DNA from: Eledone cirrhosa
Taxonomy: Eukaryota
Assembly (NCBI GenBank): GCA_964016885.1
Contig: OZ024743.1
Coordinates: forward strand, 123,256,001-123,320,000
Length of the DNA stretch: 64,000 bases
Direction: 5' to 3'
Below are positions 5,546 through 64,000 of this stretch, in pieces; positions within the stretch are counted from its first letter, which is position 1, and each line of letters opens with the position of its first letter. The notes beneath the pieces are model-generated. The model did not search any database, was not told where the DNA came from, and saw nothing but the letters and a program-made list of their open reading frames with translations. Made by a program: the position numbers and the translations under genes.

Positions 5546-5725
5546 GGAACGAGTAGCACTCCGACGGCTGAGCTCAAGCCGTTTCGAGTCCACAATTAGT
5601 CGTCGAAACGGCTTGAGCTCAGCCGTCGGGGTCCTACTCGTTCCTATTACCCACTCTACTACCATAAGTATTGAGTACTTTGGTGCGTTATTGTCCACCT
5701 GGTTCCTTACCACATTTCCTTCGTT
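5546..5725 (+). mobile_element. Short fold-back PLE end, family A
   Basis: Matches the 3' end of the 60836-63434 element. The inverted arm starts TAGGAAC and the forward arm ends TTCGTT, with (TA)n on both sides. Confidence 0.88.
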
Positions 5726-5746
5726 ATATATATATATATATATATA

Positions 5747-6010
5747 CAATATTAATAAATGGAAACTATATTTATAAAACCATATTTATTTCATTATATA
5801 TATTTCAAGGATACCAAGTTAAATCATGGTATGCCTTCATCAGACAAAATACAATCCTTGAAATATATATAATGAAATAAATATGGTTTTATAAATATAG
5901 TTTCCATTTGTTAATATTGTATGTTTACTCCAAATATTTGTCGAGTGCTTTATATCAGTTATAATAATATTTGCTTGTTGTATCCCAACAATTTAAATAG
6001 AACGTTTGCA
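5747..6010. mobile_element. Short fold-back PLE end, family C, with a hammerhead on the minus strand (5787-5851)
   Basis: Inverted repeat 5747-5812 / 5855-5919 plus a ~90-nt tail. Minus strand reads TATTTTGT-CTGATGA-AGGcATACCA..TGGTATCCTt-GAAA-TATATA-TA-ATGAAATA. Confidence 0.8.
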
Positions 6011-8175
6011 TATATATATATATATATATATATATTTTTACATACATATATATATATATATATATATATATATGTATATATATATATATATATATATATG
6101 TATATATATATATATATTGTGGAAGAATGATACACAGAAAGAGAGACGGTGACAGGTATATATTGACAGAGGGAGTGAGTGGAGGGAGAGAGGGGGATGA
6201 AGTGGGAGATTTAAAATAAATCGCATTTTATTAATATAATTACTTTTAATATGAAGTGCTGCTCCTCGGACTTTCACGTTTCATTGACGTTAATCCGAAT
6301 GCTAAATTTCTTGTTATGTTTTTAATTAAAAACATATATACATAATAAATGTGAGCTAATTTAGTGAGTTTCCTTTCCAAATAGTATATTGAGAACATGT
6401 GATTTGTATTTACTGTAAGCTTTAATATCCTAGACATACATTTTTTATACAAGACGATAACTGTTAATTTGTCAAAGTATTAGACATTCTTTCGACGTGT
6501 GAAATACTATTAGTTGTGGCTAATAAGGGAAACCAGTACCTATTAGTCTTCCAGTTAGAAATAATAACCAAATATCCCTAAAATTACATCCTACCGTTTA
6601 AGAATTTAAAACATACTATGGATAATATTAAATTAAATATGAATAAAAGCCAGCGGGGCATAGTTGGATAACTTTTGATCATATGTCTGCCTTGGTTTGG
6701 GCTGATTTGAGGCTAAATAAGTTACTGAAATGTTTTATTTTTAGGTGGACGAAGTAATGTCTCTCCAGGTTGAACACCAATGTTGGCCACCATGTGTCGT
6801 TGCAGGTATTCGGGCTACGTTTTTGCTCTAAGGTAAAAGAAAAACACCATCCCTTCTTTCTCTGACTATTACAATTGTAGGGACTGATATGACATGCCAA
6901 ACCATCTAGCTTTGCCTCATACTGTTTCTTCTCTCTGAATTCTTTGTTGAAAATTGTTATATTGACTTTGTTTACCGTCTTTCCCAGAGATGCTTTTCAC
7001 GAAACGCAGCCTAAGGTGAAAGAGCAGTAGTGCCTGTAAAAGCTCTATTAATTGCTGGTCTTTTCTATATTTCAACACCATTGGGGTGGTGGATTGGCAG
7101 AATTGTTAGGGTGTCCGATAAAAATACCAATGCAGTTTTTATTCTTGCTTTTTTACATTCCTAGTTCAAATCCGGCAAAAGCCAATTAACTTTGCTTTTT
7201 ATCCTTCCGGGGCATACAACATAAAAAACCTGTCAAGTACTACAGTTGATTTAATCAAATTTGCCTGACCTCCAAAATGTGCTTACAATTTGCCTATGTT
7301 AGGAATCAATATATAAACGCTATGTGCCATTCACCTCCTCAGACTCTACATTCTCGGTGTCCTCTCTATGTTTTCAGCAAAGTATCTCGAAAAGATCACC
7401 AGAATTCTTCAGCTACATCAAACATTTATTTTCTCATTAAAATACCATTATCATTCTGCATGCCACATGACTACCACACTAAAGACCACCACCCTAACAC
7501 CAAAATATTCACACCGTAGTATCATTTCCGTAATGTCACTACTACTACTACTACTACTACTGCAGAAGCAGATACCGCTGCTGCTACTGCTGCTGAAGCA
7601 CTACTACACCTTCACACGACCACGAAATTATTATTTCTATACATTCTAATACTACTAACAAGTCTAGTATGTATCAACAATAGTTCCTTAATGAAACATC
7701 ATACTCATTATCTCAGTCAAGTATACATTCTGTAATTACTGCAGCACACCATTACACAATATTATGATGGATTACCCCCATGTCAGTTTCGACAATGGGC
7801 ATTCAGTTATCGATCAACTGAACGTCTCACTCGTGGATTATTAACATATAAGAGGTCGTTTGTTCCTCAGGTGCCTGTACCGTTAATGTAAGTTCCAAGC
7901 TGAATTAGTGTGAACACTTCACAAGGCAGAACCACTGAATTACAGGTATAGTCCATCAGACGCGCTTCCATGTTCTCTGTCTACACAGAAAGGCGTGGGT
8001 CAAACCAAGTCCATGGTAAAGACACTTGTCGAAGATGCCACGCATTGATATCCATGCAACTTCTTACTATTCTGCCATACCAGCGTTCACTATATTATAA
8101 ACTTAAAATTATTATATCCAACTAATCTATAACTACTAAACCTCACAAACGTATCACATATCTAATGAACCATTA

Positions 8176-61028: not shown

Positions 61029-62144
61029 CGTGATGATGGGCTCCTTACCCTTAAAGGGTACAACCCCAGTAGTACAGATCGGGTCCGGAAACAATTAATC
61101 AGATTCTTCCGCGACTGGGGATTTAAAATAACCCTACAAACGTCCCTGACTCGAGTAAACTTCCTGGACGTGACCCTCGACCTCGAAAACGACCTGTACT
61201 ACCCATACAGGAAACCTAATGACAATCTGCACTACATCCACCGCCGATCAAACCATCCTAGGAACATCACAAACAACCTGGTCAAAAACATCTCCCTCCG
61301 CATATCCCGTTTGTCAGCTAATGAGCGGATATTCGATGAACATGCGCCTTATTACAACCAGGCCCTCAAGCGGAGTAGTTTCCGGGAGGAAATATCCTAC
61401 TGTCCAGCTCCCATTAGCGGAACCAGCAGGAGACACCGCCGCTCACGCAATGTAACATGGTTCAATCCTCCCCACAACGCAGAGGTGACTACTCCCATCG
61501 GGAAACTATTCTTTAGGCTCATTGAAAAACACTTCCCATTACAACACCGCTACCACAACATAATTAACAAAAATACCATCAAACTCTCTTACAGCACTAC
61601 ACCAAACTTCGCACAAAACATCGTCTCCTCTAACAATAAAAAACTCAACCCCGATGGCAGAAATAACCTAAATAGCAGTGGAGAACCGACCAGGAGGTGT
61701 AACTGCCCGGATAGATCTATTTGCCCACTCGACAATAGATGCAGAGACCGTAATGTGATCTACCAGTGCAACGTGAGGACGGATACCTCCAACAAAGCCT
61801 ATATAGGACTTACCGCATGTGACTTCAAGACCCGGCTATACCAACATAGACATACCTTCCGAAACCCGGCCCGGCGTCACGCCACTACACTTTCGGGCCA
61901 CATATGGGACCTCAAGGACAACAACATCACCTATGATCTCACTTGGAGATTACTGTCCAGAGCCAATTCTTACACGGGAGGACGCCGTCCGTGCAATTTA
62001 TGCTCGGAGGAAACTTTACAAATGCTGTTTTCGACGGACCAACTCCTAAACAAGAAAGATGAACTAGTTATTGCATGTAAACATAGATTGCGTAGGACTT
62101 ACCTCGCCCTCAAACCCCATAATGACCCGGGGGGGGTAGACTAG
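61029..62144 (+). CDS. PLE RT C-terminal half plus GIY-YIG endonuclease, uninterrupted but 5'-truncated
   Basis: The frame is open from RDDGLL through NFLDVTL, YRKPND, SNHP, WFNPP, CNC..CPL..C, VIY..YIGLT, CNLC and CKH. Confidence 0.9.
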   Translation, partial: RDDGLLTLKGYNPSSTDRVRKQLIRFFRDWGFKITLQTSLTRVNFLDVTLDLENDLYYPYRKPNDNLHYIHRRSNHPRNITNNLVKNISLRISRLSANERIFDEHAPYYNQALKRSSFREEISYCPAPISGTSRRHRRSRNVTWFNPPHNAEVTTPIGKLFFRLIEKHFPLQHRYHNIINKNTIKLSYSTTPNFAQNIVSSNNKKLNPDGRNNLNSSGEPTRRCNCPDRSICPLDNRCRDRNVIYQCNVRTDTSNKAYIGLTACDFKTRLYQHRHTFRNPARRHATTLSGHIWDLKDNNITYDLTWRLLSRANSYTGGRRPCNLCSEETLQMLFSTDQLLNKKDELVIACKHRLRRTYLALKPHNDPGGVD

Positions 62145-63247
62145 GGCTATAACACCCCACTTGCCGATTTTGCAATGGGTAACCCCTGCTTGCCAAAGAA
62201 GACGTAAGATCTTCTTTGTATTCTTTTATCGCTTCCTTTATTTCCTTCCCCCCTCTCTCCTTTGTCCTTCTACCCCAGCTCTTCTCCTTTGTCGGCGTCT
62301 TTTCTCGCCCACCCGAGGCTGCCCTTTGGCCCCATGTAGCCTTAGTACCCCCCTCCCTCCCCTAGTCTATGATAGATTTGGCGGACTCCGCCCTTTATAG
62401 CAGTTGGCTTAGACCCCGGATACTTGCCCCCTTTTTCCGACCGCTCCCACTATTCTCTGTGCCCTCTATATTTCTTAGTGGCACTTATGCCTTATTTTTT
62501 CGTTTCAGTATTTCTTGCTTCGCTTTTCTTCTGGGCGGGGTGGATTCTGAATTTATTTCTCCGTATTCTACCTTTATTTCGTACGAACTTTCATGTAGCT
62601 TGTTTTAGATCTTTTAGAGTTAGCATTAGTATATATTTTTCTCGGGACTCAGAATTATTATCTCGTACAAGTTCACTTTGCTGCACTGGGTCGTTGCTGG
62701 CCCGGGATGGAAACCTTTATTGTTTATTTCGTGGTAGTCTCTTTAGTATTTTGGCCCCTTTTGTTGACCCGTCACCGTATCATTTACGTACTTATACCTC
62801 TTAAAAGGGTCCTTGCCTTATCCGTCCCACCTAGTTCTTTTACTTATTTCGTTATTTCTTTATTTATTTCTTTCTTTACTTCTTTCTTTCTTTCTTTATT
62901 TTATTCTAGCCTAACAATAGCCTGAGACCTAGGTCGTAGAATTTAATTTACTTTACTTTTTTCTTTACACTTATTTGCTTTTCTTCACTCTCAGTATTTT
63001 TTCTTTCCTATATATTTCTACCCCCCATTGTTCTACCTACCGTTCCGACTTCCTCCCCCTCCCCCTCCCCTGTATCTTCTTTGACCTCATGCCCAGCTGT
63101 AGCTGGCACTACCAACGCTTGATTGGGTCTACTCCACCCCCTCCCCTCTTTCTCCTACTGGCAGGTTTAGCCACCATCTCCCCTACTAATTTGCAACCAC
63201 AGAATTACTACTGATTTTTGACAATCACTTTGACCATATATGGAATT

Positions 63248-63341
63248 ACCCCTTGAGAAGATCGGCTATTTAAATACCAGGATAAATTTTCATTTAGTCC
63301 AGAATTAGCCGTCGAAACGGCTTGAGCTCAGCTGTCGGGGT
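63248..63341 (+). ncRNA. Type I hammerhead with a U3-A8 core (mirror copy 60848-60941, minus strand)
   Basis: ACCCC-TTGAGAA-GAtCGGCTA...TAGCCGTC-GAAA-CGGCT tgagctc AGCTG-TC-GGGGT. Confidence 0.75.
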
Positions 63342-64000
63342 CTTACTGGTTCCTATTACCCACTCTACTACCTCAAGTATTGAGTACTTTGGTGCGTTAT
63401 GGTCCACCTGGTTCCTTACCACATTTCCTTCGTTATATATATATATATATATGTGTGTGTGTGTGTATATATATGTATATATATATGGCTGTTTGCCTAA
63501 GTGTGTGCGCGAGTGCATATCTGTGAGTGTGTAATCATAAGAATACAAAAATATATGTACATCAGAATATATGTATCGAATTGTGGAATTGTCCAGACTA
63601 AAAGAGATAAAGAGAATTAGCTACATATTGTACACTTCCATTTTCTAGTAACTAACAACTCAACATAATGTTGTTTTATATAAATGTAGCACGCTGTGCG
63701 CGTGTGCATGCGTATATATGTATATGTGTGTGGTGCGCTTAGATGAATGTTTATTGAAATTGTTCATCAGTCTATTGATTCTTGACAGTCCACATTAGTC
63801 ATAGTTCCCATTTTATCTATGTCAAATTTATCATGTAAGGCTGGATTGCATCAATGATGCTATGCCATTTAATAACAGTTGTGAACGAAATGAGATAGCT
63901 ACTGTTGGCATTGTCATATTCGAAGTCGTATATCATAGGTTTGATTGAATCGTAAATGAGCAAACGCGTGTTTTCTCTTAACCCTTAAGAATAGTGAATG

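What the first reader, a model, noticed from the sequence alone, without database searches (positions are those of the whole stretch)
5546..63434. Fixed two-terminus rule for fold-back PLE insertions in (TA)n
Seen: all five family A insertions (5546, 14904, 24378, 59156, 60836), from 180 to 2600 bp, have one end at the terminus TTCGTT|(TA)n and the other, inverted end at the same internal TA (GTTCC|TA; GTTTC|TA in one copy) about 80 nt upstream. Only the inner junction varies. Family B (CCTAC| and GATCTTATAT|) and family C (TTTGC|A and AATATTG|) behave the same way, with ~85-90-nt tails; other families show tails of about 30, 35, 80 and 165 nt. Established: inverted pLTRs with a short tail are known for PLEs. 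Inference: both strands of the cut self-complementary (TA)n prime reverse transcription at two family-specific TA sites, and the two cDNAs are joined centrally.
Basis: partly seen in the sequence, partly recalled or inferred. Interest (0 to 1): 0.7.

Follow-up and report, generated by a model that had tools for sequence, protein, structure and literature searches.

The report
Twin RNA hairpins set retrotransposon ends
These jumping genes insert into TA repeats with two different fixed ends, and each end sits just in front of one of two copies of a small conserved hairpin in the element's RNA, which suggests that two copying enzymes start side by side on one RNA and offers a testable answer to how this class of element builds its odd folded-back insertions.

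Summary
It holds for 2 of 3 copies each of B and C; B3 and C3 have no inverted arm. Family A is a Hydra-clade Penelope-like element (PLE). Inverted arms, tails and two reverse-transcription start sites are already published.

New here: in 16 related loci, all 4 intact hammerhead-to-ATG junctions carry two copies of a bulged hairpin, 63-68 nt apart. Element ends map a median 5 nt 5' of hairpin 1 (proximal) or hairpin 2 (distal). A model trained only on those loci puts 7 of its top 9 window hits at proximal sites mapped beforehand. 17 of 19 two-ended insertions pair one proximal with one distal end (9 of 12 families, p=0.07). In four, the arms do not overlap, which simple fold-back copying cannot make.

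Best reading (0.62): a dimer binds both hairpins on one RNA, and each cut (TA)n strand primes next to one hairpin. The positions are shown; the binding and priming are inferred.

The parts
60836..61029 (-). A5 inverted arm (194 nt), outer end at the proximal site; 100% identical to 63160-63353
61023..62144 (+). A5 5'-truncated Hydra-clade ORF (373 aa open): RT from the (Y)RDDGL motif, CxCx5C linker, GIY-YIG-type endonuclease with CxxC and CxH; element part starts at 61030
63248..63341 (+). Type I hammerhead-fold motif of family A with a U3-A8 core variant and long loop II; predicted cut after 63336
   Evidence: Rfam gave no hit; MFE z-score not significant
63354..63434 (+). A5 tail (81 nt) between the proximal end (63353) and the distal end (63434)
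63362..63387 (+). Hairpin 1 (RCUC-stem-loop-stem-2-nt bulge-GAGY-RC) in the A5 tail, 5 nt 3' of the last base shared with the (TA)n junction
5546..5725 (+). A1: proximal arm 5546-5587, distal arm 5587-5725, hairpin 5653-5678
14904..15096 (-). A2: distal end 14904, proximal end 15096, hairpin 14951-14976
24378..24579 (-). A3: distal end 24378, proximal end 24579, hairpin 24425-24450
59156..59336 (+). A4: the proximal arm reaches 10 nt further upstream than the distal arm; hairpin 59261-59286
21303..21501 (.). B1: 29-nt distal arm (-) joined to a 169-nt proximal arm (+, hammerhead cut 21456); arms do not overlap
27850..28220 (+). B2: fold-back with proximal and distal ends, 89-nt tail, hairpin 28139-28165
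53877..54132 (+). B3: distal end only, no inverted arm; hammerhead cut 54000, hairpin 54051-54077
5747..6009 (+). C1: fold-back with proximal and distal ends, 90-nt tail, hammerhead cut 5871, hairpin 5927-5948
21567..21825 (.). C2: proximal arm (-) joined to a distal arm that begins at the proximal site itself (about 21738); no overlap; hairpin 21746-21768
59392..59711 (-). C3: distal end only; canonical hammerhead (cut 59540); degenerate hairpin
39447..39710 (+). J: single-copy fold-back, 83-nt tail with hairpin 39634-39660
20651..21188 (+). K: single-copy fold-back, 167-nt tail; degenerate hairpin 5 nt after the proximal end; no hammerhead found
38043..38145 (.). E1: 26-nt proximal arm plus a distal arm starting inside the hairpin loop; no overlap (read by eye)
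38361..38536 (-). E2: fold-back with tail; hairpin loop expanded by TA; outer end runs into (ATT)n and is imprecise (read by eye)
40876..41040 (-). Element L, found through the hairpin model: hammerhead, hairpin 40910-40932, end at 40876 next to (CA)n; no inverted arm
38992..39425 (+). G1: fold-back with U3-A8 hammerhead (cut 39258), 36-nt tail, no clear hairpin
52989..53281 (.). G2: antisense arm plus a short sense arm that runs through two hairpin-like motifs (53227, 53256); does not fit the simple rule
38674..38967 (-). I: single-copy fold-back, 40-nt tail, no hairpin or hammerhead found
1938..4805 (+). H: Neptune-type PLE fold-back (CxxxRCxxC linker, two Cys in the GIY-YIG core), hammerhead cut 4650, 36-nt tail, no hairpin

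Best explanation
These are insertions of Hydra-clade PLEs made by two-site target-primed reverse transcription.

SHOWN (sequence): in a tandem unit the order is 3' end of ORF, hammerhead, UA-rich site P, hairpin 1, UA-rich site D, hairpin 2, ATG. Insertion ends map 2-8 nt 5' of hairpin 1 or hairpin 2, so in these families the tail is the spacing between the two hairpins. Most two-ended insertions carry one P end and one D end.

KNOWN from a related clade (PMC11167929): the protein cuts and extends both target strands and starts at two internal RNA sites that delimit the tail.

INFERRED: each hairpin is an RNA docking site that places one RT active site on the UA-rich bases just 5' of it. A dimer occupies both hairpins on one RNA, and the two 3'-OH ends of the cut self-complementary (TA)n each anneal by 2-7 nt and prime one cDNA. 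If the D-primed RT stops at or before the P complex, the arms do not overlap (B1, C2, E1, L016). If it reads through by strand displacement, both arms copy the same RNA and give a fold-back. The two cDNA 3' ends are then joined with 0-2 nt overlap. If only one end primes, a single-arm copy results. A cDNA normally excludes the hairpin that recruited it, so only a tandem junction regenerates both sites.
For: (1) 4 of 4 intact hammerhead-to-ATG junctions (L004, L008, L009, L012) hold two hairpins 63-68 nt apart, the second 38-55 nt before the ATG; L003 shows hairpin 2 directly after the D end of family s1. (2) 29 mapped ends lie a median 5 nt 5' of a hairpin, 22 of 29 within 3-8 nt. (3) Held-out test: a covariance model built from 18 locus motifs only gives 27 window hits at E<=10; 7 of the top 9 are at proximal sites mapped earlier from inverted arms (A1-A5, B2, C1), and the other 2 lie in hammerhead-bearing families. 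(4) Inner stems differ in sequence among A, B, C and J yet pair; RNAalifold finds the same structure; 95.6% of cells paired and 40 double changes, against 19-50% paired when slid. (5) Published Hydra consensus sequences, read by eye: 4 of 6 show the hairpin where predicted. (6) Published distances from hammerhead cut to element end are bimodal near 41 and 112 nt (23 of 24 rows; p=0.012 against a log-normal null), like B 43/132 and C 48/138. (7) 17 of 19 two-ended insertions are P+D (binomial p=4e-4). (8) Four have non-overlapping arms, and in A4, B2, C1 and H the P arm extends past the D arm. (9) P junctions are enriched for TA microhomology (Fisher p=0.003, 8 families). (10) The N-terminal 235 aa of a homologue (P0004) fold as a homodimer: score 0.47, best of 3 controls 0.00; mark reached by 21 of 30 solved pairs and 0 of 23 single chains (animals 7 of 16; 1 of 7 eukaryotic pairs without an older relative); runs agree in at least 35% of contacts; pLDDT at least 55.
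Against: No biochemistry: binding, priming and use of one RNA are inferred. At family level the P+D excess is 9 of 12 (p=0.07). Exceptions: L006 has two D ends; L011 2454-6247 has two P ends plus duplicated flank; an L012 end lies 7 nt past the hammerhead cut; G2's arm runs through two hairpins. Hairpin 2 cannot be seen for any window family. The training motifs were picked by a pattern that required pairing, so the covariation counts are partly circular. Single hairpins are thermodynamically weak (z from +1.3 to -2.8). The model ranks B3 11th and J 20th and misses C2, C3, K and E. Hydra-1_Obim shows no clean hairpin at its 5' end. Bimodality is not significant against a uniform null (p=0.12). 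In most short copies the two arms stop at nearly the same position, which snap-back also predicts. In vitro, PAc showed no strand difference in start site and primed without homology. The dimer model is of a homologue, was folded without my alignment, and may pass from memory.
Confidence: 0.62

Rival explanations
1. Snap-back or self-priming: one cDNA is primed at D, folds back and copies itself. The P end arises where synthesis stops before hairpin 1, or where the endonuclease cuts the TA next to the motif in DNA. This is close to the self-priming idea of PMC3846280 and the 'EN-mediated resolution' of PMC8557442.
For: Arms stop at nearly the same place in most short copies and are identical when young (194 of 194 nt in A5; 758 of 758 nt in L002). 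The motif's 3' half is near-palindromic and could be read as DNA. Penelope EN needed the tail for DNA recognition (as cited in PMC11167929).
Against: It cannot make B1, C2, E1 or L016 7837-7935 without a later deletion, nor P arms that extend past the D arm (A4, B2, C1, H). P also ends single-arm long copies (L001). D and P have the same geometry relative to their hairpins. RT start sites equal the tail ends in vitro.
Confidence: 0.17
2. Both strands prime, but on two separate RNAs, each choosing P or D independently. The P+D excess here comes from few families and from my curation.
For: In vitro there was no strand difference in start site. L006 is D+D and L011 s2 is P+P. Family-level p=0.07. 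Overlapping arms are simplest with two templates.
Against: Independent choice gives at most 50% mixed ends; 17 of 19 were seen, and 5 of 5 in family A. Symmetric fold-backs are easier to detect, and the census of 44 inverted pairs held only one tail-less TA-flanked case. D arms often stop at hairpin 1 or at P, as if blocked on the same RNA.
Confidence: 0.13
3. Post-insertion DNA repair: fragile (TA)n breaks and invades the adjacent element at an internal TA, giving an inverted duplication unrelated to retrotransposition.
For: P junctions have TA microhomology. Flank-containing palindromes exist (window 42734-44553; L011 2196-6755).
Against: Family A uses a 3-nt site although 6 equal or better runs lie within 300 nt. 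Non-overlapping arms carry sequence absent from the rest of the insertion. Ends follow the hairpin across many unrelated families.
Confidence: 0.05
4. The short copies descend from one fold-back master (MITE-like), or are palindromic assembly artefacts.
For: A1-A4 have similar lengths and clustered junctions.
Against: Five different junctions and flanks; arms share lineage-specific variants within each copy; arms differ by 0-3 nt per 42; the same geometry recurs in independent assemblies.
Confidence: 0.03

Closest known systems
Hydra clade of C-terminal EN+ Penelope-like elements (Craig et al. 2021, PMC8557442)
   Same: CxCx5C linker, no CCHH, CxxC and CxH around the catalytic E and N, (TA)n targets, hammerhead near the 3' end, optional inverted 5'-truncated copy with a tail at one end.
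   Different: Tails here are about 60-90 nt, not the 30-40 nt given for PLEs. The passages and supplement parts I read do not mention the two 5'-UTR hairpins or a P+D pairing. Family A has a U3-A8 hammerhead with a long loop II and a 1.1-kb 3' UTR.
PAc, Poseidon PLE of Anolis carolinensis, in vitro (Frangieh et al. 2024, PMC11167929)
   Same: Two internal RT start sites delimit the tail; both target strands cut and extended; predicted head-to-tail dimer through N-terminal helices; uncleaved RNA used as template (family A arms run across the hammerhead cut site).
   Different: PAc sites lie inside the ORF in one AC-rich stem-loop and have no homology to the target. Here the sites lie in the 5' UTR, are UA-rich, and each has its own copy of a conserved hairpin. 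That paper does not link two-strand priming to inverted arms.
LINE-1 twin priming (Ostertag and Kazazian 2001; recalled, not read)
   Same: The second target strand primes a second cDNA upstream on the RNA, giving an inversion joined with little microhomology; B1, C2, E1 and L016 7837-7935 have this shape.
   Different: In L1 the second site is variable, the first is poly(A), and the arms do not overlap. Here both sites are fixed and the arms usually overlap.
Telomerase RNA and other RT templates with a structured element that fixes the start (recalled)
   Same: A related RT positioned by an RNA structure next to a short template that pairs with a repeat primer.
   Different: Analogy only; no sequence or structure comparison was made, and Rfam gave no match over 63200-63433.

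Membership tests
Hydra-clade PLE (family A) | [quoted passage not shown] | tested here: met
   A5 ORF matches positions 347-701 of a 710-position profile of homologues and shows VIY...YIG; Pfam gave 0 hits for this ORF
Hydra-clade PLE (family A) | CxCx5C linker | tested here: met
   C226, C228 and C234 invariant in a 20-row alignment; definition
Hydra-clade PLE (family A) | [quoted passage not shown] | tested here: met
   C324/C327, E330, N343 and C352/H354 invariant; only one Cys inside the GIY-YIG core
Hydra-clade PLE (family A) | RWK motif and DKT in the N-terminal half | tested here: inconclusive
   A5 is 5'-truncated; its best full-length homologues carry RWK/RWR and DKT; the separate fragment at 41420 has DKT
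Hydra-clade PLE (family A) | Canonical hammerhead in the pLTR | tested here: inconclusive
   A folds as type I but with a U3-A8 core, a variant reported in PLEs (PMC4209133); B and C are canonical; activity untested
Hydra-clade PLE (family A) | Insertion into (TA)n | tested here: met
   5 of 5 copies
Hydra-clade PLE (family A) | RT phylogeny groups with published Hydra families | not tested
   No tree was built; the published sequences were only read
Hydra-clade PLE (families B, C, E, J, K, L) | Hydra-type ORF | not testable with these tools
   No ORF in these copies; assigned only by hammerhead type (B, C, E, L) and hairpin; N-terminal profile test on tails not significant (best 6.5 bits against 9.3 shuffled)
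Canonical PLE structure | Inverted 5'-truncated copy with a tail at one end | tested here: met
   described in PMC8557442 and PMC3846280
Canonical PLE structure | Tail of 30-40 nt | tested here: not met
   A 81, B 89, C 90, J 83 nt; met only by H, G1 and I (36-40 nt)
L1-type twin priming | Arms copy non-overlapping parts of one RNA | tested here: not met
   Met in 4 of 17 P+D insertions only
L1-type twin priming | Target-site duplication | not testable with these tools
   Hidden by (TA)n; no empty sites available
MITE / TIR DNA transposon | Inverted repeats reaching both termini with a shared interior | tested here: not met
   One arm stops 81 nt short of the end and each junction is unique

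The most novel reading that the evidence does not exclude
Hydra-clade PLEs carry an undescribed duplicated RNA initiator hairpin. A dimeric RT-endonuclease binds both copies on one transcript and primes both strands of a cut (TA)n at once. This single design would explain the tail, the inverted arm, microsatellite targeting by short primer-template pairing, and the need for tandem copies, and it would give a programmable roughly 30-nt start signal for a telomerase-related RT.
Probability: 0.5. Interest if true: 0.8.

Novelty: new variant of a known kind. Interest (0 to 1): 0.64.

Why it matters
How PLEs form tandem and inverted structures and target microsatellites is named as an open question in PMC8557442, and an in vitro system now exists (PMC11167929). 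A conserved hairpin placed 5 nt from each end turns that question into a direct mutational test. It also gives curators a marker for Hydra-clade ends and tail length. The elements, tails and two start sites are known. The duplicated hairpin and the one-end-each pairing were not found in my 8 literature searches, which miss most subscription papers and Repbase reports.

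Tried and rejected
Rfam over the window returned only microsatellite and palindrome matches to miRNA families below their gathering scores, and gave no match over 63200-63433.

Tails as the N-terminus of the ORF: the profile test was not significant, and the loci show both sites lie in the 5' UTR; rejected.

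TA microhomology alone as the site determinant: rejected for family A.

A fixed RNA 5' end as the cause of the clustered inner junctions: families stop at different distances from the hammerhead; left open.

Host organism: the best protein hits are 45% identical and mostly unnamed; not identified.

Script errors that were superseded: the microhomology values used wrong anchors for B and C (redone, where B1 is still anchored on its second TA run); the C1 distance failed (redone); the A2 arm was off by one (redone); 6 of 24 gap values matched the TA run (redone, where B2 -2, L001 1 and L016 13 look like walking artefacts but were kept in the count).

Rows left out: P2_NV (355 nt) was dropped before the bimodality fit; motif L004:5646 was left out of the training set because it has no hammerhead context; G1, G2, H, I, K, F and the D palindrome are not in the 19-insertion tally (D is counted as a miss in the 12-of-13 window count); L004, L005, L007, L010, L012, L014 and L015 had no two callable ends.

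The supplementary figure PDFs of PMC11167929 gave almost no text, so Fig. S2, which maps tail ends, was not seen. Metagenome and viral contig collections, other copies in this genome and empty orthologous sites stayed unchecked.

Full report
WINDOW. The 64-kb window is 35% G+C, dense in (TA)n, (CA)n and (GA)n, and looks like invertebrate non-coding DNA. The host was not identified: the best protein hits are 45% identical. A masked self-comparison lists all repeats, and a census gives 44 local inverted pairs.

CHECK OF THE OBSERVATION. All five family A copies are as described. Each inverted arm ends at the base equivalent to 63353 (site P) and each main arm at 63434 (site D). The 81-nt tails differ by 1-4 nt and the outer flanks all differ. 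The two arms of each copy share private variants, so the five are separate events from at least three lineages. Inner junctions overlap by 0-2 nt or hold 1-2 extra bases. In families B and C, 2 of 3 copies each have both ends, while B3 and C3 have only D. In B1 and C2 the D arm is no longer than the tail, so the arms do not overlap. Other tails are 36-40 nt (G1, H, I), 83 nt (J) and 167 nt (K). The one symmetric palindrome, 43495-43788, is the centre of a larger inverted duplication that includes host flank and truncates a neighbouring ORF.

IDENTITY. The A5 ORF (61023-62144) has 204 longer and 552 similar-length homologues. It has the CxCx5C linker, CxxC and CxH motifs and lack of CCHH that define the Hydra clade. 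B and C carry canonical hammerheads. A and G fold as hammerheads with a U3-A8 core, a variant already reported in PLEs. H is Neptune-type, with a 36-nt tail.

RELATED LOCI. One scan of bacterial genome contigs returned 16 loci with 36-42% identical relatives, evidently eukaryotic DNA inside MAG contigs. They show the same stacks of elements in TA tracts. Four loci keep an intact junction from hammerhead to ATG (L004, L008, L009, L012). All four hold two copies of a bulged hairpin, RCUC-stem-loop-stem-2-nt bulge-GAGY-RC, each preceded by UA-rich bases; the copies are 63-68 nt apart and the second lies 38-55 nt before the ATG. In L008 and L009 the downstream end of the same element stops 4 nt before where hairpin 2 would begin. 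For family s1, four D ends stop 5-8 nt before hairpin 2 as seen in L003, and two P ends stop 6 nt before hairpin 1. Over 29 ends the median gap is 5 nt, with 22 within 3-8 nt.

TESTS OF THE HAIRPIN. A pattern scan gives 25 hits in the loci (shuffles 1-6) and 16 in the window (shuffles 1-5). A covariance model trained on 18 locus motifs only was run on the window: of 27 hits, 7 of the top 9 fall at P sites mapped earlier from inverted arms. The top hit revealed a further element end at 40876 with its own hammerhead. B3 ranked 11th and J 20th; C2, C3, K and E were missed; H has no hit. RNAalifold recovers the same seven pairs, five of them with double changes. This count is partly circular because the motifs were chosen for pairing, but the window families were located without the motif and still show different inner stems that pair. 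Single hairpins are weak by energy. Of the six Hydra consensus sequences in the supplement of PMC8557442, read by eye, four show the hairpin where predicted: Ajap1 (both copies at its 5' end), Ajap2 and Amil2 (in the tail) and Crog (in the tail, with a looser copy at its 5' end). Amil1 ends at P and is uninformative, and Obim shows no clean copy. Published cut-to-end distances for 23 of 24 families fit two modes near 41 and 112 nt (p=0.012 against a log-normal null, 0.12 against a uniform null), close to B (43/132) and C (48/138); A is 17/98.

PAIRING OF ENDS. By my manual tally, 17 of 19 two-ended insertions are P+D: 12 in the window and 5 in the loci, the far end of L016 7985-8743 being less certain. 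L006 is D+D and L011 2454-6247 is P+P with duplicated flank. The binomial p is 4e-4 per insertion but 0.07 per family (9 of 12). Single-arm copies are common. Four P+D insertions have non-overlapping arms, and D arms repeatedly stop at hairpin 1 or at P (C2, E1, L006, two in L016; the 5' end of L009 also lies at hairpin 1). One P arm in L016 begins exactly at the hammerhead cut. P junctions carry more TA microhomology than random positions (p=0.003).

MECHANISM. Shown: the positions and pairing above. Known from PAc: both strands are cut and extended, two internal start sites delimit the tail, and a dimer is predicted. Inferred: each hairpin docks one RT of a dimer on the same RNA; each (TA)n 3' end anneals to the UA-rich bases before it; the D-primed RT either halts at the P complex or displaces its cDNA; the two cDNAs are joined end to end. 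A homologue's N-terminal 235 aa gave a supported homodimer model (score 0.47, best control 0.00; mark reached by 21 of 30 solved pairs and 0 of 23 single chains, animals 7 of 16; contacts agree at least 35%; pLDDT at least 55), which does not show binding. Snap-back with endonuclease trimming (after PMC3846280 and PMC8557442) explains why arms often stop together, but not the non-overlapping arms. Independent RNAs cannot exceed 50% mixed ends. Confidence: 0.62 for this model, 0.17 snap-back, 0.13 independent RNAs, 0.05 repair, 0.03 master copy or artefact.

PAPERS SEEN. PMC11167929: parts 1-2 of 4 (abstract, main text, start of methods), passages, and two figure PDFs without useful text. PMC8557442: abstract, passages, the Hydra section, supplement parts 2, 53 and 54 of 59 and three supplement searches. 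PMC3846280, PMC4209133 and PMC8969392: passages. 10.64898/2026.07.22.740005: part 1 of 5. L1 twin priming and the telomerase analogy are recalled. The hairpin pair was not found in eight searches.

VERDICT. A real feature of a known clade. Novelty: new variant of a known kind. Interest 0.64.

Noticed in passing
window 42734-44553: A 1.8-kb palindrome (arms 97.5% identical) centred in a family D element and including about 700 nt of flank. Its left edge truncates a Hydra ORF fragment (41420-42722). It looks like an inverted duplication with deletion, not a primed insertion.
   Followed up: partly
window 20651-21825, 38043-39710, 59156-63434: Several different elements are stacked in one (TA)n tract; each insertion leaves TA on both sides and renews the target. 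The same is seen in L001, L011 and L016.
   Followed up: partly
window 63293-63312 equivalent (A1-A4 junctions): Eight of ten family A arms stop 24-43 nt upstream of the hammerhead cut, inside stem and loop II. B1 and B3 also share the same 5' start (21333 and 53877). RT stalling or an RNA 5' end; unexplained.
   Followed up: partly
window 63248-63341 and 39210-39265: Two unrelated families (A and G) have hammerhead folds with the U3-A8 core variant.
   Followed up: partly
window 53217-53281: Two hairpin-like motifs only 29 nt apart, both inside the G2 insertion, which ends at (CA)n; a third site or a different start.
   Followed up: partly
window 1938-4805: In Neptune-type element H each arm has its own internal deletion, one with a 6-nt microhomology, and the left arm has lost the hammerhead core.
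   Followed up: partly
window 8175-8549, 29821-31214 and others: A roughly 190-nt SINE-like repeat with 23 hits, some in tandem.
   Followed up: no
window 17238-19052: Broken LINE-type RT fragment (Pfam RVT_1); a separate GIY-YIG fragment lies at 51958-52356(-).
   Followed up: no
window 37300-38010: Fold-back F has TA at one end only, with a possible degenerate hairpin beyond the other arm.
   Followed up: partly
L001-L016: Eukaryotic retrotransposon-rich DNA lies inside bacterial genome assemblies, including near the end of a 492-kb contig (L012); likely host contamination or chimeric joins.
   Followed up: no
L002 3566-5908: A P+D insertion with 758-nt identical arms sits in an (ATAC)n-like repeat rather than (TA)n; window element L ends at (CA)n.
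   Followed up: partly
L010 3281-4469 and L011 6755-6949: A tRNA-like short repeat arranged in tandem and inverted copies ending in TA-rich sequence, possibly a passenger mobilised by PLEs.
   Followed up: no
window 48777-48877, 33984-34029, 22147-22194, 13800-13895: Small perfect or near-perfect palindromes (46-96 nt) of unknown origin.
   Followed up: no
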